Source of the DNA: Candidatus Nomurabacteria bacterium
GTDB taxonomy: Bacteria > Patescibacteriota > Minisyncoccia > Phycocordibacterales > UBA918
Reading direction: 5' to 3'
DNA length: 64,000 nucleotides
Assembly: GCA_020632015.1 (NCBI GenBank)
Contig: JACKGI010000003.1
Coordinates: forward strand, 1,421-65,420
Shown here: positions 3,334-54,270 of the stretch, piece after piece
Numbering within the stretch: the first letter of the stretch is position 1
Layout: every line of letters begins with the position of its first letter
Notes under the pieces: generated by a model
Told to the model about the DNA's origin: nothing
What the model saw: only the letters and a program-made list of their open reading frames with translations
The model's database searches: none
Translations under genes and position numbers: made by a program

Positions 3334-3957
3334 ATGAAATTCATTCTAGGAACAAAGACGGGCATGACACAAGTCTTCGACGCTGAAGGTGTGTGTCGCG
3401 CAGCTACCGTTCTTAAAGTTTCACCTGCGAAAGTATCACAGGTAAAAACTTCTGAGAAAGATGGTTACGCAGCTGTACAGCTTGCTTCTGGTACACAGAA
3501 GGAACAACGTGTAGCTAAGGCTCAAAAAGGTCACTTCGGTGGCGCGGTTGCTCAATCAAGAGAATTTCGACCAAGAACTGGCGAAGAAACAAAAATCGAA
3601 GGTGCTGAAAAAGGTGCTTCTCATGATGTTTCTGTCTTCGAACCAGGCGATGACATCACTGTATCTGCTATCTCAAAAGGTAAGGGATTCCAAGGTGTTG
3701 TTAAGCGTCACGGCTTCAAAGGAGGTCGTCGAAGTCATGGTCAAAAGCACTCTGAGCGAGAGCCAGGGTCAATTGGAGCAACAGGGATTGGTCACGTACT
3801 TAAGGGCACTCGAATGGGTGGCCGAATGGGAAATGACAAAATCACAGTGAAGGGTCTAAAGGTTCTTCAGGTAAATGCAGCAGAAAACATTCTTGTTGTA
3901 TCAGGAGCTGTCCCAGGTCGAAAGGGCACATTAGTAGAGGTCTTCATGACTAACTAA
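3334..3957 (+). CDS. rplC: 50S ribosomal protein uL3
   Basis: Translation is typical of L3 (KGKGFQGVVKRHGF, GNDKITV). First gene of the cluster. Confidence 0.97.
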   Translation: MKFILGTKTGMTQVFDAEGVCRAATVLKVSPAKVSQVKTSEKDGYAAVQLASGTQKEQRVAKAQKGHFGGAVAQSREFRPRTGEETKIEGAEKGASHDVSVFEPGDDITVSAISKGKGFQGVVKRHGFKGGRRSHGQKHSEREPGSIGATGIGHVLKGTRMGGRMGNDKITVKGLKVLQVNAAENILVVSGAVPGRKGTLVEVFMTN

Positions 3958-38539: not shown

Positions 38540-38644
38540 GGTGACGTCCTCTTGTTGTATTGAACCATCTAGTTAAAAGTTAGTACGGATAGCTTGATTT
38601 GTAAACACCCGCTCGCAGAGCGAACGGGTGTTTGAAAAAATATA

Positions 38645-38967
38645 TGTGGTCTTATCATAACGCTTGCTCGAACTACTTGGTCGCGAAGCGACTAACGCTG
38701 GCCGCGCGGAGCGCGTGGTGATGCGGTACTTCCGCGTACGCATTCGCGTTCGTGGTGATGCCTCACGCTCCTTACAGTAGCGGTACACCCTTTGGCTATA
38801 TTCTCCTTGCGTCAAATCTAGCGCAAAAGGTCTTGCGAAAGTCTCCCAGACTTTCTCACCTCCCACCGCCTCCGCTACCCGCTCCGGCGGTACGCTCTCC
38901 AGAACCTCCTTTGCAGTATTCCTTTTTCTTTTGGGCCCGGGAATAGTTTTTGAATATGGAAAAGGAG
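38645..38967 (-). repeat. 323-bp GC-rich repeat, left copy (X); perfect inverted copy at 44173-44495
   Basis: My base-by-base comparison found no mismatch between the copies. Identical spurious ORF translations appear in both copies. Confidence 0.95.
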
Positions 38968-39213
38968 TTCTGTCGGGCGCACTTCCACTATGTCGTGGAA
39001 GTAGGGAGGTGCTCCCGAATTCGGTGCCTCGTGACTTGTTTCCTCGCTAGTGGTTGTCCAGGCTAAAGGTGTGGCACCCTCGGCATCCGCCTCGGGCTAT
39101 TTACGTTAGTGCTTGCCCCACGCCCTCGCGCTGACGCGCTCGGGCTCCCGCCAGTGCATTCATTGGGTTTCACTACAGTATTAATATCGAGTTCCTAGAT
39201 TAAATATTACTTC
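38645..39213 (-). ncRNA. Candidate large structured noncoding RNA (~570 nt) directly downstream of the 977-aa gene; class unknown
   Basis: Visibly GC-rich compared with its flanks. 38968-39213 has no ORF of 60 aa or more in any frame. Many local hairpins (gaaagtc-tggga-gactttc, ttccac-gacata-gtggaa, accgcc...ggcggt, gtcgc-ttc-gcgac). A hairpin at about 38600-38632 follows on the minus strand. Confidence 0.3.
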
Positions 39214-42147
39214 TTAATAATTATTTGGAAGATTGTATGGTTTAATATCTTTTATATCAATAAATCCATTATCTATTCTTTCATCAGTTTTGTTGCGCTG
39301 CCAAGACATGTTTGATTCAAAAACTAGTTTCAAGTCCTCGGGTGTAATGTTTTTCTTTATAAAGTTTTCTATCTCGGGGTCGCTCATGTCCGATGGGTTA
39401 AATGACTCAATATTTTCCAACATACCAATTTCCATCAACACCTTAGTATCAGTTGCTAGTCTACTCAAAGTAGTATTATCTTGCTCTAGCCCTTCGACCC
39501 TAAGTAGAACCGGATTGCTGTCTGCGTATGTAGACCAGTACTTTTCAAAAGTACTAATTATTTCATCACCATCTTCTTCAGACACGTTTTTGTATCCAGC
39601 TTTTAAATATTCCTCTTTACGATTAGTGATTGACTGAACTTTTCTGAGCACATTTCTTTTCGCTTTTTCGTAATCTCTTTCTGAAAAAGCACCGTCTGTC
39701 ATAACATTTAACCACTCAGGGCTACCTTTAGCATAATTAACAGCACCGCCTGAACTCTCACAGCTACCCGTTAAGAACAGCTTATTTGATGAATTAATGT
39801 CATACCAGCCGATAAATTCATTTTTAGGAACATTATTTCGTTCCAGTATGTCCGACAATCTATCAAGATCTGCTTCAAATCCTCGCTCACTACTTTTTGC
39901 CCTGCCACTTTCTAGTATTTCTCTTAAAGCCACACTGTTGGTGCCGTGATACATAACGCCCATTTGTTTATCGTACAGTGACAGACAAACATCTAGGGCA
40001 CTTTCAATGTTTGAATCAAAATCAACAGAAAGATTTTTACTTTCTAGATTAATCATGGAATCAAAAAGTAATTTTCTCTCTTCATTAAAAATTTTGTGAT
40101 CTGGCAATGAAGCTAATTCATTGAAATCTACGCCACGTAACTCGTCCATCATTAGGGTCAAACTATCTAAGGAATCGTCACATTGCATAAGTAATGAAGA
40201 TGCGAAACCCAGTAATATTTCACGCGCTTTTTTATCTTCATAAGATTCAAAAAACGCATTAAATTTTTCTCCTTGTAGAAAAGAAGAGACTTTCATTTGT
40301 TCAAAATTACTATCTTTTTTCATAAGACTGCTTTTGGTCTTTGAATTTTTAACACTTCTTCTTTCTCTCCATTTGTCAAAGTTTCCATCCATATATGCCC
40401 ACAAAGCAGTTTTATCAGTTAGTGTTTCCTTTGGAAAACCAACCAGCTCGAGTGCGCCAGGATACTGCTGTTCGTATACTTGATTTATTTTAAAAATATC
40501 ATTTTGATTCCGGACTCTAATCCAAGGCAAAACTTCACTTTCGATTTTTAGTAAAGACCTCTCGCCATTCTTGGTCTCTATTGTTTCTATTGAGCCTACT
40601 ATAAAACCACGATCGATTTTATCCTGCCAATCTGCCACCTCTTCGCTGTCAGCAGTAGTTTTTTCGTAAGGGTACTCTGTTCTGAAAATTTCTGCGGGCA
40701 TTTTTTCTAACCCACTGGCTTTTATACCAGCAACACGATGTGTCCCGTCAAAAACCGAATAAATTGGACCTGCTGGACCTTCATAACTAGCTAATTTAAT
40801 CCTCTCATTTGTTCCATCTTCCGTGTGAAAAATTCTCTCAATCCCAGTTTCATCTTCTGGATTGTTCACTTGCTGTACTATTTCGCTGATTCGTCCACCA
40901 CGCTCGTCATACTCATGTGCCCATCCATTTTCATAATTATCAGCGTTTGGTCTACCGACAATTTTATCTGTTTCTACAAATTCAAAAATGCTTTGTTCTG
41001 CACGAGAGGGTTCAACATCATAGAGGGTTTTAGTGTCTATAATTGGTTCACCCTTTAATCTTTCGTAATCTGGCTCCTTATTGATTTTTCCTTCGCCCAT
41101 CTGCTCTCGGATCGTTTTTATCGTTTCCACTTTCGTTATTTCTGTTGGAGATTCGATACCACCCTCTGTTTCTACTATTGGTTTCGATTTAGCTGTTCCT
41201 ACTTCAGCAGGTGTCATTCGATCGTAGTAGGCACTTTTTTGAGGAAACCTGTCTCTAAATAATTTTTCTGCAGTTTCTGAAGGATCATATTTTATATTTC
41301 TTTTAAATTCACGATCGTCATCGCTGCTATACGTATCAGCCTCCTTCAAACAGGCGGCATAATCAGGATCCTCCTTTAGCGACTTAGGGAGCTCCTCTTC
41401 AGAAACTCCCGCAGCTACAACCGCATCAATTTCTGATTGAACAGATTCACGATTTTGGGCTAAGACATCAATCCCTTCTTTTTCTTTCATCAGAGTTTCG
41501 TAACGATCTGATACACCACTCATTTCCACTAATACGTCACGTCTGTGTAACTTAAGACGATCTGAATCGGGGTCGCCAGACTCGATAGATGTGTTCAGAT
41601 CGTCTAACTCAGCTTGAAGTTTTTCTGTAGCTCGATGATTACGTTCTATACGCTCATTGAAATCTGCTTCTTGCTTATCAAACGATGAAAGCTGGTTGCG
41701 TAATTCTGCAGTCCGCTGGTCTATTACTTGGTCAGCAACGAATCCTTTGACAACCTCGTCTTCTTGTTCGGGTGATTCAGCACCAGAGTTGATGAGATCA
41801 ATATCAAGTCGACTACTGGATATACTATGTTCAGCTCTACTAATCCTGTTTTGAATTTCTGGTAAATGAAACTCGAAGTGAGAAGGCTCGGTTGTATTGT
41901 TATTTCTCCACCTTTCCAGATCTGCTAAGGCGGTATCTCGACCAATTTCGGTTAAACGGATTCCTTCTTCAAGAGCCTCGACCCGTTCCTGAGGCGTGTC
42001 CTCAATAGGGTAGCTTTCTACTTCTACGCTTTCTGGAGCACTAAGAGATTCATCTGGTTGCTCGGACATCTCAGACTCCCCACTTGTTTCAGTGGGAGGT
42101 GTTGCGGAAGGATTCTCAAAACTCTCTTTCATACTCATATGATACAC
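39214..42147 (-). CDS. Large (977 aa) multidomain protein: acidic coiled-coil N-terminus, central ParB/sulfiredoxin-like motif, C-terminal region with a possible ADP-ribosyltransferase/Tpt1-like motif
   Basis: ParB-type signature SVFDGTHRVAGIKASGLEKMPAEI (aa ~464-487). C-terminal MYHGTNSVALREILESG (aa ~732-748) resembles the HG[ST]...IL..G start of PARP/Tpt1-type folds. GTG start at 42147, or ATG at 42138 or 42132. Confidence 0.6.
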   Translation of the reverse strand: MYHMSMKESFENPSATPPTETSGESEMSEQPDESLSAPESVEVESYPIEDTPQERVEALEEGIRLTEIGRDTALADLERWRNNNTTEPSHFEFHLPEIQNRISRAEHSISSSRLDIDLINSGAESPEQEDEVVKGFVADQVIDQRTAELRNQLSSFDKQEADFNERIERNHRATEKLQAELDDLNTSIESGDPDSDRLKLHRRDVLVEMSGVSDRYETLMKEKEGIDVLAQNRESVQSEIDAVVAAGVSEEELPKSLKEDPDYAACLKEADTYSSDDDREFKRNIKYDPSETAEKLFRDRFPQKSAYYDRMTPAEVGTAKSKPIVETEGGIESPTEITKVETIKTIREQMGEGKINKEPDYERLKGEPIIDTKTLYDVEPSRAEQSIFEFVETDKIVGRPNADNYENGWAHEYDERGGRISEIVQQVNNPEDETGIERIFHTEDGTNERIKLASYEGPAGPIYSVFDGTHRVAGIKASGLEKMPAEIFRTEYPYEKTTADSEEVADWQDKIDRGFIVGSIETIETKNGERSLLKIESEVLPWIRVRNQNDIFKINQVYEQQYPGALELVGFPKETLTDKTALWAYMDGNFDKWRERRSVKNSKTKSSLMKKDSNFEQMKVSSFLQGEKFNAFFESYEDKKAREILLGFASSLLMQCDDSLDSLTLMMDELRGVDFNELASLPDHKIFNEERKLLFDSMINLESKNLSVDFDSNIESALDVCLSLYDKQMGVMYHGTNSVALREILESGRAKSSERGFEADLDRLSDILERNNVPKNEFIGWYDINSSNKLFLTGSCESSGGAVNYAKGSPEWLNVMTDGAFSERDYEKAKRNVLRKVQSITNRKEEYLKAGYKNVSEEDGDEIISTFEKYWSTYADSNPVLLRVEGLEQDNTTLSRLATDTKVLMEIGMLENIESFNPSDMSDPEIENFIKKNITPEDLKLVFESNMSWQRNKTDERIDNGFIDIKDIKPYNLPNNY

Positions 42148-42179
42148 TTAATTAAACCTTTTTATAAATAAATATTTTT

Positions 42180-42512
42180 ATGCAAAATCAAGATTTTCAA
42201 GATTTTTTGTTTAAGCTGTATGACTTCACAGACCGCTTAGCAGACGAAGCTCAGTTCGACCCGTCTCAGGAGAGTGTTCGAATCCTAACGTTAATTTTCA
42301 TAGAGCAATACTTTGACAGTATTGGTCGGGGTGAAATTAGCCAAGCAGCAAGAGAAAGTGGTGCTGATGCACAGCAATCACTTTCAGAAGCTCATAAGAG
42401 AATTGATGAACTGCGAGGTCAGATAAACTCACTCGTCTCTAAAATTGAAGATATTGAACCTATGGAAAGGTACGCCAGAGAGATAGTGGCTCAGTGGCTT
42501 AAAAAGAACTAA
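42180..42512 (+). CDS. Hypothetical small helical protein (110 aa)
   Basis: ORF divergent from the 977-aa gene. Only 4 nt separate it from the next ORF. Confidence 0.55.
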   Translation: MQNQDFQDFLFKLYDFTDRLADEAQFDPSQESVRILTLIFIEQYFDSIGRGEISQAARESGADAQQSLSEAHKRIDELRGQINSLVSKIEDIEPMERYAREIVAQWLKKN

Positions 42513-42516
42513 TCAT

Positions 42517-43311
42517 ATGGCTAATGATGATAGTGATCTAGAATTTGAATTGATAAGTTTTGTCGACCTGGTTAAACATACCCTTCTAGATATGTTTGAG
42601 TTTAGTGCTCACTCATTTGAAAGCATCCAAGGTCCATATTATTGGAATGGTCTCGGAATGGACTTTATGACCTCAATGCCAACCGAGAAAGTTTTGAAAC
42701 ATGCCGAGCAAGAAGGTGCCAAAAAGGTATATCTTGCTCACACTCATCCCTTGTCGAATGATGATGTATGCAAGTTTCTAAATATAAAAGTTGATCCCCG
42801 TGAGGAAATGGCGTTTGGCTATAAAGCACTACCTTTAGGGAACAAACCTTCATCAGGTGATATCTCATTTCTCAGTCAATTTCAGAAAGACTTTGAAGAT
42901 GCTGGTATTGAAGTGTCTGGTGTAGTGTTTTCTGCCACAGGATTATGGGAATTTAGTATAGTTGACATCCTCAACTTTAACTCCGATAAGTTTGTGGGAG
43001 CGTATGACGTCGTCTTTCCGATTGAAGACAGTGAGGACTTTTTTGATGAACTTTCAGCTAGAAGCGCTTTCCCGAGCTATTTTATGGAACTGCAGAAGCC
43101 AAAAATTAGGGACAATTCATACCAAACACAGCTTGATGGGAAACGAGACATCTCTCCTGTTGATTATAATGAGAACATCGAGTCAATTGTAAAATTTTTT
43201 GGCGATAACGGTATTAGGCTTAAATTTTACCTGTATTCAGACTTTAATATCAATCCACAACAAGTCATGGCTGATACTATTGATCAGTGGTCGGGTCAGT
43301 TCACAACTTAG
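42517..43311 (+). CDS. Hypothetical protein with possible JAB/MPN (JAMM) metallopeptidase motif
   Basis: AEQEG...LAHTHP...(32 aa)...PSSGDISFL resembles E / HxH / SxxD, but the HxH-to-S spacing is unusually long. Confidence 0.4.
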   Translation: MANDDSDLEFELISFVDLVKHTLLDMFEFSAHSFESIQGPYYWNGLGMDFMTSMPTEKVLKHAEQEGAKKVYLAHTHPLSNDDVCKFLNIKVDPREEMAFGYKALPLGNKPSSGDISFLSQFQKDFEDAGIEVSGVVFSATGLWEFSIVDILNFNSDKFVGAYDVVFPIEDSEDFFDELSARSAFPSYFMELQKPKIRDNSYQTQLDGKRDISPVDYNENIESIVKFFGDNGIRLKFYLYSDFNINPQQVMADTIDQWSGQFTT

Positions 43312-43877
43312 AAAACAAGTTCCACAATTTTATCAGCTGTCACATAGACAATGTTAGTATTGTTGTATTTCTGCACCAGACTGTCTTTTGTTGGGTATGT
43401 ATGACCGTGAAAAAAGTATTTTGGCTGCTTCTGGTCCAAATAATTTCGTAAGGCAATTAAGCCTGTGTGGGCAGGGTCATCTTCATCATTGATACCTGCA
43501 GGTGGTGAATGTGCAATAAACACATCAACATATGGAAAGTCTTTCATAAGCTCAACAGCTTCTTCTTGTGTGTACATTTTTGCAAATTGATCATTCTTGT
43601 ACTTGTGTGATCCATCAAAACCACCGAAGGTTATACCGCCAACTTCTATTGTATTCAAGTGCATATCTGCGATACCTAATTGCTCCATATAGCCTGGTGT
43701 GCAGTGATTACCATAAACACCAATCTTTGGAATGTTCGTAATTAATTCAAGTTCCGCGATCTGGGTATATTCAAGGTCACCAAGTGTAATAACTAAATCA
43801 ATATTCTCATCCAGAACTTGATCTTTAATCGAACTTTTAGGTGGGCGATCTGCTATTACTAGTACTTTTAGATCCAT
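43308..43877 (-). CDS. Calcineurin-like metallophosphoesterase (YfcE/MJ0936-like)
   Basis: VLVIADRP, ITLGDL, VYGNHC, IAHSPP, FHGHTY. ATG at 43877, directly after the HTH stop. Confidence 0.8.
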   Translation of the reverse strand: MDLKVLVIADRPPKSSIKDQVLDENIDLVITLGDLEYTQIAELELITNIPKIGVYGNHCTPGYMEQLGIADMHLNTIEVGGITFGGFDGSHKYKNDQFAKMYTQEEAVELMKDFPYVDVFIAHSPPAGINDEDDPAHTGLIALRNYLDQKQPKYFFHGHTYPTKDSLVQKYNNTNIVYVTADKIVELVF

Positions 43878-43881
43878 GATA

Positions 43882-44103
43882 CTAATCGACGAAGTAGTCG
43901 AGTTTTCTTTTGAATAATTTTGCAATTGCTGAGAGTTCGATAACGTCAATTCGTCGTTCGCCTCGTTCGATCTTTGAAATGTATGATTGAGGTTTGCCAA
44001 GCTTCTCAGCAGCTTCAGTTTGCGTCAAACCGGCCGCTTCGCGGGCTTCGCAAAGTTTCTTGATGACTGTTTTGTATTCACTGCTGTGAATTGACTTTGG
44101 CAT
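43882..44103 (-). CDS. XRE-family helix-turn-helix transcriptional regulator
   Basis: LTQTEAAEKLGKPQSYISKIERGERRIDVIEL. Confidence 0.88.
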   Translation of the reverse strand: MPKSIHSSEYKTVIKKLCEAREAAGLTQTEAAEKLGKPQSYISKIERGERRIDVIELSAIAKLFKRKLDYFVD

Positions 44104-44116
44104 ACGACTTAAATGT

Positions 44117-44150
44117 ATAACCCATTGTAGGATAACCCAAAATAGGTTAT
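44117..44150. promoter_or_regulatory. Putative operator of the XRE regulator: three ATAACC half-sites
   Basis: ATAACCCA at 44117-44124 and 44132-44139, with inverted GGTTAT at 44145-44150, immediately upstream of the HTH gene. Confidence 0.4.
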
Positions 44151-44172
44151 TCTTTTATTATCCTCCAGAACA

Positions 44173-44495
44173 CTCCTTTTCCATATTCAAAAACTATTCC
44201 CGGGCCCAAAAGAAAAAGGAATACTGCAAAGGAGGTTCTGGAGAGCGTACCGCCGGAGCGGGTAGCGGAGGCGGTGGGAGGTGAGAAAGTCTGGGAGACT
44301 TTCGCAAGACCTTTTGCGCTAGATTTGACGCAAGGAGAATATAGCCAAAGGGTGTACCGCTACTGTAAGGAGCGTGAGGCATCACCACGAACGCGAATGC
44401 GTACGCGGAAGTACCGCATCACCACGCGCTCCGCGCGGCCAGCGTTAGTCGCTTCGCGACCAAGTAGTTCGAGCAAGCGTTATGATAAGACCACA
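44173..44495 (+). repeat. 323-bp GC-rich repeat, right copy (X'), inverted relative to 38645-38967
   Basis: No mismatch found by eye. The 3' end (gataagaccaca) abuts the 139-bp repeat Y. Confidence 0.95.
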
Positions 44496-44629
44496 AATTG
44501 AAACATTACTCATTCCACGACCCCTATCCGCAAAGCGGATAGGGGTTTGTGTGTGCATGAAATCGGTTTTTGTATTGTACGCAAAGACCAATTCCGAGAG
44601 GACGGGCACGCCGAAGCGCGCGGATTTGT
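44491..44629 (+). repeat. 139-bp inverted repeat, left copy (Y)
   Basis: Its reverse complement matches 46047-46185 with no mismatch by my comparison. Contains the hairpin cccctatccg-caaa-gcggatagggg followed by TTTGTGTG. Confidence 0.95.
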
Positions 44630-44656
44630 TCTTGTTTTAAGTATCTTCAATGCATT

Positions 44657-46201
44657 ATGTCCAAACCAAAATATTTTCTATATGCTCGCAAGAGCACCGA
44701 GGATGATGACAAGCAGGTGATGAGTATCGAAGCTCAGTTGTTTGAGCTTCGTGAGTTTGCTCGCAAAGAAAATCTTGAAATCCTAGTGGAGTTTCAAGAG
44801 TCAAAAAGCGCAAAGACACCAGGGCGACCTGTATTCAATGACATGATGCGGGCTATCGAGGAGCAAGAAGAAATCGGCATATTGGCGTGGCATCCGGACA
44901 GACTTGCTCGCAACTCGATAGATGGTGGTCGCATCATTTACCTTGTCGATCAGGGGAAGTTAGTGTCTATGCGCTTTCCGACTTTTTGGTTTGAACCTAC
45001 CCCGCAGGGGCTCTTTATGTTGCAAGTGGCGTTTGGCCAGTCGAAATATTACTCGGATAATCTCCAAGAGAATATTCGTCGGGGGATGCGCCAAAAACTC
45101 CGCCGTGGAGAGTGGTTGTGTAAAGCGCCGCTCGGGTACACAAACAATCCCAAGACCAGAAATATTGAGCCAGTTGGTTTTCAAGCGCGGGTGATAAAGT
45201 TAGCATTTGAAAAATACGCGAAGGGCGGAACTGGTCTTGAGGCATTGGCGGAGTTTATGGCGCATCATGGTATGACGACTCAGGAAGGAACGCCACTTGG
45301 CAAAGCTACCGTGAAGCGAATGCTTTCGAATCGGGCATATATCGGACTTACGAAACATAAGGGCGAATGGTTTCCCGGTAGCTTTGCACCAATTATTTCC
45401 TCGAAATTATTTGAAGACGTGCAACGAGCACTCAAAGTGCGCGAGAAGCCGCGGAAGCGCAAGGTACGACATGATTTTCCTTTTGCTGGACTTTTTCAGT
45501 GTGCGGAGTGTGGCGGCATGTTTACTGCTCAGTGGGCAACAGGGAAGACAGGGCAGCGGTATAGATACTATCGTTGCACTAAGAAAAAGGGAGTCTGTAC
45601 GCAAAAGTACTTGCGTGAGGAGGAACTTCTCGCGCAGATAAAAGATCGTCTTCAAAAAATTTCGCTTTGCGATAATGTGCTTGAGGAGTTGGAGCGTCAG
45701 CTCACAGAGATTGAAAAAGCAGAACATCAATCATCGCAAAGCGACCTCCAAAATCTTTCTGAAAGTATCAAAGCGGGTGAAGCGCGCTTGAATAAGTTGG
45801 TCGAGTCGTATCTCGATGGTGATATTCCAAAGGAGCTGTATGTACAGAAGAAAGACGAGATACTCCGCGCAAACACCGCTTTGCATGAAGAAATGAAAGA
45901 TTTTAAACGTCGAGGAAATACTTGGGTCGAACCCCTGCGCGAATGGATTTCAGATACTAAACAAGCCAATTTTTTAACAAACACAGAGGATCTTCAAGAT
46001 ATTCGTGTGTTTGTTGAAAAAATTGGAACGAACCCTTCGGTTCGTGACAAATCCGCGCGCTTCGGCGTGCCCGTCCTCTCGGAATTGGTCTTTGCGTACA
46101 ATACAAAAACCGATTTCATGCACACACAAACCCCTATCCGCTTTGCGGATAGGGGTCGTGGAATGAGTAATGTTTCAATTTGTGGAGATGGGGGGAGTTG
46201 A
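44657..46201 (+). CDS. Large serine recombinase (integrase)
   Basis: N-terminal resolvase domain (KYFLYARKSTEDDDKQVMSIEAQ), recombinase domain, zinc ribbon CAECGG...YYRC, coiled coil. The last ~52 codons read through repeat Y', and the TGA stop lies inside the ssrA T-arm. Confidence 0.9.
   Translation: MSKPKYFLYARKSTEDDDKQVMSIEAQLFELREFARKENLEILVEFQESKSAKTPGRPVFNDMMRAIEEQEEIGILAWHPDRLARNSIDGGRIIYLVDQGKLVSMRFPTFWFEPTPQGLFMLQVAFGQSKYYSDNLQENIRRGMRQKLRRGEWLCKAPLGYTNNPKTRNIEPVGFQARVIKLAFEKYAKGGTGLEALAEFMAHHGMTTQEGTPLGKATVKRMLSNRAYIGLTKHKGEWFPGSFAPIISSKLFEDVQRALKVREKPRKRKVRHDFPFAGLFQCAECGGMFTAQWATGKTGQRYRYYRCTKKKGVCTQKYLREEELLAQIKDRLQKISLCDNVLEELERQLTEIEKAEHQSSQSDLQNLSESIKAGEARLNKLVESYLDGDIPKELYVQKKDEILRANTALHEEMKDFKRRGNTWVEPLREWISDTKQANFLTNTEDLQDIRVFVEKIGTNPSVRDKSARFGVPVLSELVFAYNTKTDFMHTQTPIRFADRGRGMSNVSICGDGGS
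46047..46185 (-). repeat. 139-bp inverted repeat, right copy (Y'), which is the region immediately downstream of ssrA including its terminator hairpin
   Basis: Reverse complement of 44491-44629. Shares CCA with the 3' end of ssrA. Confidence 0.95.
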
Positions 46202-46576
46202 ACCCCCGTCCGAATCAGGGTGCGAATATGAGTCTACAGTGCGTAGTACATTCTTTGGTTTAAAGTAGCTAACTAGAGAATGAACAAAACACTAACTACT
46301 CGAGTTGTTACAATCTTGAAAACCTAAGACAACGACAAAGGTTTCCACAGTCTCGTAGCTATTCTACAAGTGTCAGCGTATGAGACGTTTACTGAACTTG
46401 CATCGCATCGGCGAGCGTAAGATTACGCTACAGCGGGTGCGAATCCGAACGCGTTAGCGTAAGGACTTGGTACTGCTTTGTTTGCATGTACAAGACGGAA
46501 CCTTTTAACGAATTGATTACCAGTTTTCGACACTGCACACATCCGACACGACTAACCGTCGATGCCTAGCATCCCC
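46183..46576 (-). ncRNA. ssrA: tmRNA (SsrA)
   Basis: 5' GGGGAUGCUAGGCAUCGACGG. 3' GGACGGGGGUUCAACUCCCCCCAUCUCCA. The acceptor pairs GGGGAUG/CAUCUCC with G3-U. Predicted tag reading frame 46485-46423 gives ANKAVPSPYANAFGFAPAVA*. smpB lies nearby. Confidence 0.9.
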
Positions 46577-54168: not shown

Positions 54169-54197
54169 TTAGCTATATGGAAATGAAGTTTCCTGTG

Positions 54198-54270
54198 TCC
54201 GCCCGCCAGGACTCGAACCTGGGACCACGAAGGTATAAGCTTCGCGCTCTACCAACTGAGCTACAGGCGG
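54198..54270 (-). tRNA. tRNA-Ile(UAU)
   Basis: Manual cloverleaf: acceptor CCGCCUG/CGGGCGG, D arm GCUC-AGUUGGUA-GAGC, anticodon arm CGAAG-CUUAUAC-CUUCG, variable UGGUC, T arm CCAGG-UUCGAGU-CCUGG. CCA is not encoded. Confidence 0.8.

What the first reader, a model, noticed from the sequence alone, without database searches (positions are those of the whole stretch)
38645..39213. ~570-nt GC-rich noncoding tract downstream of the 977-aa gene (candidate large structured RNA), with its 3' 323 nt duplicated in inverted orientation at 44173-44495
- **Composition.** In an AT-rich, gene-dense genome this block is conspicuously GC-rich.
- **No coding support.** 38968-39213 has no ORF of 60 aa or more in any frame. 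The ORFs within X are overlapping Arg/Pro/Ser-rich composition artefacts on both strands.
- **Local structure.** Read on the minus strand it begins right after the stop of the 977-aa gene. It contains many short perfect hairpins: ttccac-gacata-gtggaa, accgcc...ggcggt, gaaagtc-tggga-gactttc and gtcgc-ttc-gcgac.
- **Internal repeats.** GCATCACCACG occurs twice and AGCGTTA twice.
- **3' end.** It ends at ...GACCACA just before a hairpin (38600-38632).
- **Second copy.** The partial copy X' lies on the opposite strand, next to the HTH promoter/operator, and is followed by the borrowed ssrA terminator. Both copies are therefore oriented as if each were a transcribed RNA with a terminator.
- **Classes I could not match.** RNase P RNA, tmRNA, group II intron domains V/VI, or rRNA.
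- **Possibility.** Large ornate RNAs such as the ROOL, GOLLD and OLE classes are known to occur in mobile elements, so a new or divergent member is possible.
Basis: partly seen in the sequence, partly recalled or inferred. Interest (0 to 1): 0.75.

Follow-up and report, generated by a model that had tools for sequence, protein, structure and literature searches.

The report
Integrase attachment arm beside tmRNA gene
The GC-rich tract is the non-coding right end of a ~7.5-kb mobile element that a large serine integrase inserted at the 3' end of the tmRNA gene of a CPR (Patescibacteria) bacterium; its last ~30 bases are the integrase docking site, most of it is a long inverted repeat, and the rest is the gutted remnant of a conserved, possibly RNA-forming module that related elements keep intact.

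Summary
The tract is 54-55% GC in a 42% GC genome and has no coding signal. Its outer 324 nt (X, 38645-38968) has a perfect inverted copy (X', 44172-44495).

The window comes from a Kaiserbacteria/Nomurabacteria MAG. X ends at the crossover core of a large-serine-recombinase element inserted at the ssrA 3' end. In 80 related Patescibacteria loci:
- the recombinase gene abuts a convergent tRNA/tmRNA 3' end in 65;
- it is flanked by a 115-150-nt inverted repeat (Y/Y') in 75;
- where contigs allow, the variable cargo is flanked by X/X'.

The last 4-7 nt of X track the 3' end of the target tRNA. A GTTCG box lies 28 nt from the junction in X and 22 nt in the tRNA T-loop. The outer 125 nt of X conserves sequence boxes but no fold, and its hairpins are strand-symmetric.

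The inner 245 nt is an internally deleted relative of a 400-480-nt GC-rich non-coding module. That module is intact in 11 related elements and has a covarying 30-bp closing helix and tandem G·A motifs. It matches no Rfam family.

The "borrowed ssrA terminator" is element sequence. The hairpin at 38603-38633 is probably the displaced native terminator.

The parts
38603..38633 (-). Hairpin Z just outside the element (B' side of attR). It is most simply the native ssrA terminator displaced by the insertion.
   Evidence: Its role is inferred from the junction logic. Flanks after X in other loci are also terminator-like hairpins.
38645..38673 (-). P half-site plus crossover core of the integrase attachment site: GTTCGAGC...GATAAGACCACA.
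   Evidence: In 45 loci the last 4-7 nt of X match the 3' end of the target tRNA/tmRNA. The GTTCG box is 28 nt from the junction in X and 22 nt in the tRNA T-loop.
38645..38968 (-). X: the attR-side arm of the long inverted repeat that flanks the cargo.
   Evidence: It has a perfect inverted copy at 44172-44495. Homologous X arms occur in more than 40 related loci.
38703..38761 (-). Conserved sequence boxes inside X: GCATCACCACG twice, GAATGCGTACGC, and CGCGCTCCGCGCG.
   Evidence: The boxes are conserved across the family, but only 0-3 conserved base pairs are predicted.
38904..38968 (-). Long imperfect palindrome at the inner boundary of X.
   Evidence: Equivalent ~90-nt palindromes occur in relatives in both orientations, with a C-rich or a G-rich loop. 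They give miRNA-precursor-like hits on both strands.
38969..39213 (-). Remnant of the conserved non-coding module. It keeps the 5' hairpin CCCGAGCGCG-TCA-GCGCGAGGG (39123-39144), GGGGCAAGCAC... (39097-39119), the hairpin CCCGAGGC-GGAT-GCCGAGGG (39077-39096) and CTTCCAC...GTGGAAG (38982-39001). The ~390-nt core is missing.
   Evidence: nhmmer and blastn find the full module just inside the distal X copy in L032, L088, L092, L090, L065, L086, L100, L076, L093, L094 and L068. The window matches only profile positions 381-419 of 424.
39214..44103 (.). Cargo unit: 977-aa (-), 110-aa (+), 264-aa (+), 230-aa metallophosphoesterase (-) and XRE-type HTH (-).
   Evidence: ORFs and Pfam results are. The same unit occurs in the opposite orientation relative to its flanks in L001 and L003, and in another genomic context in L002.
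44172..44495 (+). X': the second, inverted copy of X, joined to Y to give an intact attP-like junction.
44491..44629 (+). Y: inverted copy of the recombinase 3' end (P' arm), including the hairpin at 44520-44546.
   Evidence: Y-type repeats flank the recombinase in 75 of 80 related loci.
44657..46201 (+). Large serine recombinase (514 aa). Its ORF crosses the attL junction and stops 21 nt inside ssrA.
   Evidence: Pfam finds Resolvase, Recombinase and Zn_ribbon_recom domains. The exact protein is named 'recombinase family protein' in NCBI.
46047..46185 (-). Y': the P' arm at attL. It encodes the recombinase C-terminus on the plus strand and supplies the hairpin now following ssrA.
46180..46576 (-). 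tmRNA gene (ssrA), the integration target. Its 3' end reads ...CATCTCCACA|AATTG.
   Evidence: Rfam scores it 105 bits, full length. ARAGORN also calls it.

Best explanation
**What the tract is.** It is the attR-side non-coding terminus of an integrative element of about 7.5 kb (38645-46180). A large serine recombinase (44657-46201) inserted the element at the extreme 3' end of ssrA.

**Junctions.** Reading from the tmRNA on the minus strand:
- attL: ssrA...CTCCACA|AATTGAAAC (Y')
- attR: X...GACCACA|TATATTTTT (Z)
- internal: X'...GACCACA|AATTGAAAC (Y), on the opposite strand

The internal junction is exactly what joining the two element ends would give. It is therefore an intact attP-like site in inverted orientation.

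**Architecture.** The element is built as [X-cargo-X'][Y-recombinase-Y']. As a circle it would carry two inverted ~460-bp X·Y repeats. They separate a recombinase arc from a cargo arc.

**Outer end of X.** The last ~30 bp of X are the integrase P half-site. It carries a GTTCG box that imitates the tRNA/tmRNA T-loop box but sits 6 bp further from the crossover. It also carries a 4-7-nt core matched to the target's 3' end.

**Rest of X.** It holds conserved sequence boxes and strand-symmetric palindromes. I infer these act at the DNA level, as accessory or regulatory sites and as substrate for repeat homogenisation and flipping.

**Inner 245 nt.** This is an internally deleted copy of a 400-480-nt structured non-coding module. 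In about half of the related elements with a sequenced far end, that module sits between the cargo and X.

**Shown versus inferred.** Shown are the repeats, the junction sequences, the family-wide architecture, the co-variation of the X end with the target, and the deletion. Inferred are the actual recombination chemistry, the role of the boxes, and whether the module acts as RNA.
For: - **Repeats and junctions in the window:**
- **Recombinase domains:**
- **Family:** 80 Patescibacteria loci have recombinases 55-95% identical.
- **Target genes:** a convergent tRNA/tmRNA abuts the recombinase 3' end in 65 of 80 loci. Three more have the recombinase unit flipped.
- **Y/Y' repeat:** present in 75 of 80 loci, at 74-100% identity. 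The diverged arms rule out an assembly artefact.
- **X/X' repeat:** about 20 long loci have it around variable cargo.
- **attL versus internal attP in 45 loci:** the last 4 nt are identical at 3.91 of 4 positions, against 2.88 for shuffled pairings (maximum 3.24 in 2000 shuffles).
- **Box offset:** the GTTCG box is 28 nt from the junction in X (38 of 41) and 22 nt in the tRNA (40 of 44).
- **Mobility:** the same cargo with X' is joined to a different flank in L002.
- **Cargo orientation:** both orientations relative to the flanks are seen. The window and L007-L009 have one; L001 and L003 have the other.
- **X lacks a conserved fold:** 0 pairs in 30 sequences and 3 invariant pairs in 21 sequences.
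- **Strand symmetry of X:** outward versus inward MFE is lower in 24 of 49, Wilcoxon p=0.82.
- **Module remnant:**
Against: - No empty attB site and no circular junction distinct from the internal X'|Y junction was recovered. Every contig carrying the neighbouring 143-aa gene breaks inside X. Mobility therefore rests on comparative evidence only.
- Known serine integrases need only ~50 bp of attP. Nothing here explains why 320+ nt of X, or the duplication of the whole X·Y region, are kept.
- The dyad symmetry of the proposed attP is weak (TCA-N5-TGA, by eye).
- X could still be transcribed. Each copy is followed by a hairpin, and X'-Y lies upstream of and co-directional with the recombinase gene.
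- The two cargo orientations could be assembler choices across a 327-bp perfect repeat.
Confidence: 0.72

Rival explanations
1. The tract, and its full-length relatives (module plus X, 650-900 nt), is a gene for a new large structured RNA carried by these elements. It would be transcribed outward, from the cargo toward the junction. Its overlap with the attachment arm would be secondary.
For: - The module in 11 loci has a consensus of 46 pairs. Cells paired are 93.4% against 89.4% shuffled (0 of 500 shuffles reach it). Ten pairs change on both sides against 3.8 expected (0 of 500). Slid controls give 40-50% paired.
- Conserved non-Watson-Crick features sit inside helices. There is a U·G plus tandem G·A/A·G in AUGAGCGCC/GGCGCGAGU in 10 of 10 sequences, and recurring CCGAG...CGAGG hairpins. 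There is also a GNRA-capped hairpin, GCGAAAGC.
- The outward strand folds better: -57.5 kcal/mol with 46 pairs, against -47.6 kcal/mol with 36 pairs.
- There is no codon periodicity, and 1-2-nt indels are common.
- An abrupt GC-rich block of 650-850 nt abuts AT-rich cargo.
- Apart from the recombinase, X and Y, it is the only component shared by elements with unrelated cargo.
Against: - The window's copy lacks the whole core domain.
- The module is absent from about half of the X-bearing elements.
- The 23+7-bp closing helix is nearly perfect. In a family that visibly maintains DNA inverted repeats, its covariation could be DNA-level.
- Within that helix, G·U and A·C cells are balanced, about 3 versus 4.
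- X itself has no conserved fold and is strand-symmetric.
- Palindromes in X occur in both orientations.
- No promoter or terminator was found by consensus scans.
- No transcript data are available.
Confidence: 0.2
2. X/X' and Y/Y' are the substrates of a site-specific inversion system run by the adjacent recombinase. This would resemble the P1 C segment with Cin, or the 2-micron plasmid with Flp. It would flip the cargo or the recombinase gene as a switch, and the tract would matter mainly as the repeat carrying the inversion site.
For: - The recombinase gene lies next to a cargo flanked by long perfect inverted repeats, with att-like junctions at their outer ends.
- Both cargo orientations are found among near-identical loci. 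L100 has the opposite orientation to the other module-bearing loci.
- The recombinase unit occurs in the opposite orientation in L040, L064 and L101.
- Perfect identity of the arms implies ongoing exchange.
Against: - From general knowledge, large serine integrases recombine attP with attB, not two like sites. The window's junctions are of three different types (attL, attP-like, attR).
- Homologous recombination between 327-bp repeats, or assembler ambiguity, would give the same isomers.
- The recombinase orientation is strongly skewed, 65 to 3.
- The repeat arms have decayed to 74-90% identity in some loci.
Confidence: 0.2
3. The inverted duplications are assembly artefacts, such as fold-back chimeras or a mix of integrated and excised forms. 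The tract would then be ordinary intergenic DNA.
For: The source is a metagenome-assembled genome. Many short contigs break inside X.
Against: The same architecture appears in 75 of 80 independent MAG loci from different assemblers. Arm identities range from 74 to 100%, so the arms are separate physical copies. Unique junctions at the inner ends of both Y copies are present in independent assemblies.
Confidence: 0.02
4. The tract is a decayed protein-coding gene or a fragment of rRNA or another known RNA.
For: High GC content and spurious ORFs on both strands.
Against: - No Pfam family reaches its cut-off for the ORFs.
- No Rfam match appears even at E<=10.
- No blastn match was found in the phage or plasmid collections.
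- Homologues show no codon periodicity, and their indels are often not multiples of three.
Confidence: 0.02

Closest known systems
Large serine recombinase (serine integrase) integration systems, such as phiC31, Bxb1, A118/LI and SCCmec CcrAB
   Same: - The recombinase has Resolvase, Recombinase and zinc-ribbon domains.
- Identity between the partner sites is only a few bases at the crossover.
- The P-type half-site carries its outer motif about half a turn further from the centre than the B-type half-site: 28 versus 22 nt. The general rule is from memory of the LI integrase-attP work.
   Different: - The target is the extreme 3' end of tRNA/tmRNA genes.
- The integrase ORF runs across the junction into the tRNA.
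- The whole ~460-bp attP region is present twice in inverted orientation.
- The conserved region beside the crossover is far longer than a ~50-bp attP.
Genomic islands in tRNA/tmRNA genes (Williams; Islander database) and tycheposons of Prochlorococcus
   Same: These are site-specific insertions at the 3' end of tRNA/tmRNA genes, carry variable cargo and occur in streamlined genomes. Islander is PMC4383910. [quoted passage not shown]
   Different: - Those islands mostly use tyrosine integrases and restore a displaced 3' part of the tRNA through a direct repeat.
- Here the shared core is only 4-7 nt.
- The repeats here are inverted and internal.
- The host group is Patescibacteria.
P1 C segment with Cin, Mu G segment with Gin, and the yeast 2-micron plasmid with Flp
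   Same: A recombinase gene sits next to, or between, long inverted repeats that carry the recombination site. Two orientation isomers exist. The comparison itself is from memory.
   Different: - Those systems use small serine invertases with an enhancer, or a tyrosine recombinase, acting on two identical sites.
- Here the enzyme is a large serine recombinase.
- The sites here are of attL, attP and attR types, and inversion by the enzyme is not shown.
Large ornate RNAs of mobile elements (ROOL, GOLLD)
   Same: They are large GC-rich non-coding regions in mobile DNA found next to tRNA genes. The module has long-range pairing with covariation.
   Different: No match to either Rfam model, or to any other, was found. 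Adjacency to the tRNA is explained by the integration site. The window copy is truncated. RNA status is unproven.

Membership tests
Large serine recombinase attP/attB integration module | Recombinase with an N-terminal resolvase catalytic domain, a recombinase domain and a zinc beta-ribbon domain | tested here: met
   Pfam hits: PF00239 at 6e-24, PF07508 at 2e-13, PF13408 at 2e-12.
Large serine recombinase attP/attB integration module | Element junctions share only a short core with the target. attL, attR and the joined-ends sequence are related by simple arm exchange. | tested here: met
   The window junctions share only CCACA. The same arm-exchange logic holds in 45 loci.
Large serine recombinase attP/attB integration module | P-type and B-type half-sites carry a related motif at different distances from the crossover, about 5 bp | tested here: met
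   GTTCGNG lies 28 nt from the junction in X (38 of 41). GTTCGA lies 22 nt from it in the tRNA (40 of 44). That the box is the zinc-ribbon-domain motif is inference.
Large serine recombinase attP/attB integration module | Imperfect dyad symmetry of each att site about a central dinucleotide | tested here: inconclusive
   Only a weak TCA-N5-TGA symmetry is seen by eye in X|Y. The B' flanks are not conserved.
Large serine recombinase attP/attB integration module | Demonstrated integration and excision: an empty attB site, a circular attP, or in vitro recombination | tested here: inconclusive
   No empty site was recovered. A circular junction cannot be told apart from the internal X'|Y junction. 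The same cargo at a different flank in L002 supports mobility. Biochemistry is not testable here.
Known large or structured RNA families (ROOL, GOLLD, OLE, raiA, RNase P, tmRNA, group I/II introns, rRNA) | Match to the family covariance model | tested here: not met
   cmscan on the window at gathering threshold finds only the tmRNA and two tRNAs. At E<=10 the tract and two full-length relatives give only chance-level hits.
Structured non-coding RNA (generic) | Conserved secondary structure supported by compensatory changes | tested here: inconclusive
   The inner module meets it, but DNA-level repeat maintenance could mimic it. The outer 125-150 nt of X does not meet it. The window copy lacks the core.
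Structured non-coding RNA (generic) | Strand specificity: G·U pairs and a better fold on one strand | tested here: inconclusive
   The module favours the outward strand, -57.5 against -47.6 kcal/mol, with a conserved U·G. X shows no asymmetry: 24 of 49, p=0.82.
Structured non-coding RNA (generic) | Transcription with defined ends | not testable with these tools
   No transcript data are available. Consensus promoter and terminator scans were uninformative.
Serine invertase switches (Hin/Gin/Cin type) | Small (~190 aa) invertase with an enhancer, acting on two identical ~26-bp sites in inverted repeat | tested here: not met
   The enzyme is a 514-aa large serine recombinase. The junctions are of three different types.

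The most novel reading that the evidence does not exclude
Patescibacteria carry a widespread, undescribed family of cargo-swapping integrative elements, and two features may be functional innovations.

1. **Doubled attachment region.** The whole attP region is duplicated in inverted orientation, so the excised circle would be a 2-micron-like flip-flop. Alternatively, a single-stranded copy could fold to rebuild a duplex attP, as CTX-phi does.
2. **A new large RNA.** A 400-900-nt GC-rich structured RNA (the module, possibly continuing through X across the crossover point) may control or take part in recombination or maintenance of the element.

The window would hold a naturally truncated version of that RNA.
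Probability: 0.25. Interest if true: 0.8.

Novelty: new variant of a known kind. Interest (0 to 1): 0.6.

Why it matters
- **Reassignment.** An apparent ornate RNA becomes the end of a mobile element. This also defines the boundaries of an island in a CPR genome, at 38645 and 46180.
- **A family for experiments.** The analysis exposes a family with at least 80 loci in GTDB species representatives. Its serine integrases read the universal T-loop/acceptor end of tRNA and tmRNA genes. The natural attP/attB pairs, with cores that co-vary with the target, are ready material for integrase specificity studies and tool building.
- **Unexplained architecture.** Known serine-integrase biology does not account for the conserved double inverted repeat. 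The GC-rich structured module is the only conserved non-protein part among elements with unrelated cargo. Either could reveal how mobile DNA is maintained or moved in bacteria that lack obvious conjugation and phage machinery.

Tried and rejected
- **Rfam** at gathering and permissive thresholds on the window tract and two relatives found nothing.
- **blastn** of the tract against the phage and plasmid collections found no match.
- **Partner RNA of the 977-aa protein** was rejected. Homologues at ~60% identity (L011-L014, L016-L018) have no such tract, and only the recombinase-linked L015 has one.
- **Coding or degraded gene** was rejected.
- **Conserved fold of the X outer region** was not found in 30 or in 21 sequences.
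- **Metagenome pattern scan.** Ten of the 13 hits were chance matches in high-GC DNA. Only L023, L027 and L031 were real.
- **Viral contig scans** with two patterns from the conserved module found nothing.
- **Empty-site search** through contigs carrying the neighbouring 143-aa gene failed, because all of them break inside X.
- **Literature searches** found no description of this architecture.
- **A first strand-symmetry script** timed out. It was rerun with mononucleotide shuffles.
- **Assembly artefact** was rejected because the repeat arms have diverged in many loci.
Full report
**1. The observation.**

The tract 38645-39213 is 54-55% GC. The window is 42% GC and the adjacent 977-aa gene is 39%. 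No ORF of 50 aa or more lies in 38969-39213, and the ORFs inside the repeat have no Pfam family above cut-off.

The outer part X has a perfect inverted copy X'. The tool reports arms 38642-38968 and 44172-44498, and identity actually ends at ...GACCACA (38645 / 44495).

A second perfect inverted pair went unnoticed. It is Y (44491-44629) and Y' (46047-46185). Y' is the last ~46 codons of a 514-aa ORF with Resolvase, Recombinase and Zn-ribbon domains. It ends exactly at the 3' end of a full-length tmRNA gene at 46180-46576 on the minus strand.

Single-sequence folding is better than shuffles on both strands, with z -6.3 and -6.9. Rfam gives nothing on the tract even at E<=10.

**2. Source and near-identical copies.**

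Exact protein look-ups place the window in a Candidatus Kaiserbacteria/Nomurabacteria MAG on a 134.6-kb contig. Contigs from other metagenomes carry the same cargo at 99% identity or more.

- In the window and in L007-L009 the order is 143aa-Z-X-tract-977...HTH-X'-Y-recombinase-Y'-ssrA.
- In L001 and L003 the cargo between X and X' is inverted relative to the flanks. There the 974-aa gene, the tract, X, Y and the recombinase are co-directional, and the HTH side faces Z and the 143-aa gene.
- In L002 the same cargo and X' are joined to a third flank (GACCACC|AAAACTGAAGC..., then a terminator and unrelated genes).
- Most short contigs break inside X.

**3. The tract is not a partner of the 977-aa gene.**

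Homologues of that protein at ~60% identity in other Kaiserbacteria (L011-L014, L016-L018) have no such tract and no inverted repeats. The one exception is L015. It sits next to a serine recombinase, and its cargo is flanked by ~250-nt imperfect inverted repeats (93-96% identity) that share a 60-nt core with X.

**4. The recombinase family.**

A scan of GTDB species representatives with the recombinase returned 80 Patescibacteria loci at 55-95% identity.

- In 65 loci the recombinase 3' end abuts or overlaps a convergent tRNA or tmRNA 3' end. The full tally (which also counts the three flipped loci) is Glu 47, Arg 8, Ser 3, Lys 2 and tmRNA 2, and one each of Val, Leu, Ala, Pro, Ile and a UUA-anticodon tRNA.
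- In 3 loci the recombinase unit lies the other way round, downstream of the tRNA.
- In 75 of 80 loci the recombinase is flanked by a Y/Y'-type inverted repeat of 115-150 nt at 74-100% identity.
- In about 20 loci with enough flank there is also an X/X' pair of 140-450 nt. X' abuts Y, and X lies 1.5-9 kb away across the cargo.

The cargo is unrelated between elements. Examples are PLD, GDPD, an FAD oxidase, PLP enzymes and a LexA-methylase fusion. The diverged repeat arms show these are real separate copies, not assembly fold-backs.

**5. X ends in the attachment site.**

For 45 loci I compared the tRNA|Y' junction with the internal X'|Y junction. Downstream of the junction the two are identical, because that is Y.

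Upstream, the last 4-7 nt of X follow the 3' end of the target gene:

| Target | End of X |
|---|---|
| tRNA-Glu | ..TCAC |
| tRNA-Arg | ..GCAC |
| tRNA-Ser | ..CCGC |
| tRNA-Lys | ..GGAC |
| tmRNA, tRNA-Ala | ..CCAC |

The last four bases are identical at 3.91 of 4 positions, against 2.88 for shuffled pairings.

X carries a GTTCG(N)GCAAAGG box 28 nt from the junction in 38 of 41 cases. The T-loop GGTTCGA box of the tRNA lies 22 nt from it in 40 of 44 cases. A related motif about half a helical turn further out in attP than in attB is what is described for serine integrases. That rule is from my memory of the LI integrase-attP work, so it is a lead and not a test.

In the window the three junctions read:
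- ssrA...CTCCACA|AATTGAAAC (attL)
- X...GACCACA|TATATTTT (attR)
- X'...GACCACA|AATTGAAAC (internal)

The internal junction is exactly the joined-ends, attP-like sequence, in inverted orientation.

The hairpin after X (38603-38633) is therefore most simply the native ssrA terminator displaced to attR. The hairpin now following ssrA belongs to Y'. Both points are inference, but flanks after X in other loci are also terminator-like.

**6. What the rest of X is.**

X is GC-rich in all loci, at 0.48-0.62 against 0.36-0.53 for the loci as a whole.

Its outer ~125 nt conserves primary-sequence boxes: CACCACG, GAGCGTA or GAATGCGTACGC, CGCGC...GCGCG and CTCGAAA. RNAalifold finds 0 conserved pairs in 30 sequences and 3 invariant pairs in the 21 most similar ones.

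Its inner part is a ~90-nt imperfect palindrome. The arms change in a compensatory way, but the loop is C-rich in some loci and G-rich in others. The palindrome has therefore flipped at the DNA level.

Across 49 X copies both strands fold equally well. The outward strand has the lower MFE in 24 of 49, Wilcoxon p=0.82, and mean z is -3.1 and -2.6.

I conclude that X is a DNA-level feature: a half-site, conserved boxes and palindromes. It is not a conserved RNA fold. Transcription of X is not excluded.

**7. The inner 245 nt.**

It is not unique to the window. Sequences homologous to it lie immediately inside the far (attR-side) X copy, in the same orientation, in L032, L088, L092, L090, L065, L086, L100, L076, L093, L094 and L068. 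In those loci an abrupt 650-850-nt block of 50-70% GC abuts AT-rich cargo.

The shared part is a 400-480-nt module with highly conserved blocks. It shows no codon periodicity and has many 1-2-nt indels.

RNAalifold predicts 46 pairs, and the pair counts support them:
- 93.4% of cells are paired, against 89.4% in shuffles (0 of 500 shuffles reach it);
- 10 pairs change on both sides, against 3.8 expected (0 of 500);
- slid controls give 40-50% paired.

The main feature is a 23+7-bp long-range helix closing about 370 nt. It carries independent compensatory changes. It also has a conserved U·G plus tandem G·A/A·G interruption. CCGAG...CGAGG hairpins recur, and there is a GNRA-capped hairpin. The outward strand folds better than its complement, at -57.5 against -47.6 kcal/mol.

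These are RNA-like traits. However, a near-perfect 30-bp pairing, in a family that demonstrably maintains DNA inverted repeats, is not proof of an RNA. No Rfam family matches, and two pattern scans of viral contigs found nothing.

The window's copy keeps the 5' hairpin and the 3' end of the module but has lost the ~390-nt core, including both arms of the closing helix. About half of the X-bearing elements have no module at all.

**8. How it most likely works.**

Shown: the element spans 38645-46180 and is organised as [X-cargo-X'][Y-recombinase-Y'] next to ssrA.

Inferred:
- The recombinase joined an X|Y attP to the ssrA-end|Z attB.
- The element supplies a new hairpin after ssrA.
- The second, inverted X·Y copy stays intact next to the recombinase gene.
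- The perfect identity of the arms and the two cargo orientations indicate ongoing exchange between the arms. This could be homologous recombination with gene conversion, which might also explain the raised GC, or enzyme-mediated inversion.

Why the attachment region is duplicated is unexplained. The nearest parallels I know are the P1 C segment with Cin, the 2-micron plasmid with Flp, and the folded attP of CTX-phi. All three are from memory and none is a membership claim.

**9. Known or new.**

Full-text searches found tRNA/tmRNA islands with tyrosine integrases. They also found tycheposons, a few of which carry a large serine recombinase. They found no description of this Patescibacteria family, its double inverted repeat or the module.

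I rate the finding as a new variant of a known kind, namely a serine-integrase integrative element. A possible new structured RNA is attached to it, and the window holds only a truncated version of that.

Noticed in passing
window 46180-46201: The recombinase ORF reads across the attL junction and uses a stop codon 21 nt inside the tmRNA gene. Its last ~7 codons are antisense to the tmRNA acceptor/T-arm. At the internal X'|Y-type junction the same frame would run about 10 codons further, into X. In relatives the ORF likewise runs into the tRNA.
   Followed up: partly
window 54197-54270: tRNA-Ile with anticodon UAU, which is uncommon in bacteria. The same tRNA lies near the tmRNA in L032 and L058 and is itself an integration target in L104.
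   Followed up: no
window 39214-42147: The 977-aa cargo protein has no Pfam, NCBIfam or PADLOC match. By eye it has an acidic, coiled N-terminal third and a ParB-like 'FDGTHRVAG' motif. Its homologues in other Kaiserbacteria are 600-820 aa and align to only part of it (25-66% of the query). The neighbouring 230-aa metallophosphoesterase weakly hits the candidate defence family PDC-S10.
   Followed up: partly
window 38714-38761 (and X of L085, L088, L062 and others): The conserved boxes inside X read (A/G)TCACCACG and GCCACCACG. They look like tRNA 3' ends with CCA and sit about 70 and 105 nt from the real junction. They could be fossil cores or accessory sites. This is unexplained.
   Followed up: no
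L015, L048, L056, L062 versus L023, L027, L037, L081, L103 (inner part of X): The ~90-nt palindrome at the inner edge of X has its ~20-nt loop in opposite orientations in different elements (GGAGGGGTCTGGGGAGGAG versus CTCCTCCCCAGACCCCTCC). This implies hairpin-mediated inversions during evolution.
   Followed up: partly
L056 258-2753 and L064 9400-9780: Here the partner of X' lies beyond the recombinase and beyond a tRNA-Glu/tRNA-Ser pair, facing the tRNA-Ser 3' end at ~120 nt. This is a different arrangement, perhaps two elements at adjacent tRNAs or a rearranged one.
   Followed up: no
L091 1832-1905: The integration target is called by ARAGORN as a tRNA with anticodon UUA ('tRNA-Stop'). Its 3' end (..GGCGGAC) matches that of tRNA-Lys targets. 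It could be a suppressor-like tRNA or a mis-called tRNA-Lys.
   Followed up: no
L088 4072-4093 with 3727-3749; also L076, L090, L086, L092, L094, L100: The two arms of the module's closing helix were found independently by nhmmer as an inverted partial copy about 330 nt apart. The window's deletion removes exactly the region bounded by these arms, as expected for hairpin-mediated deletion.
   Followed up: yes
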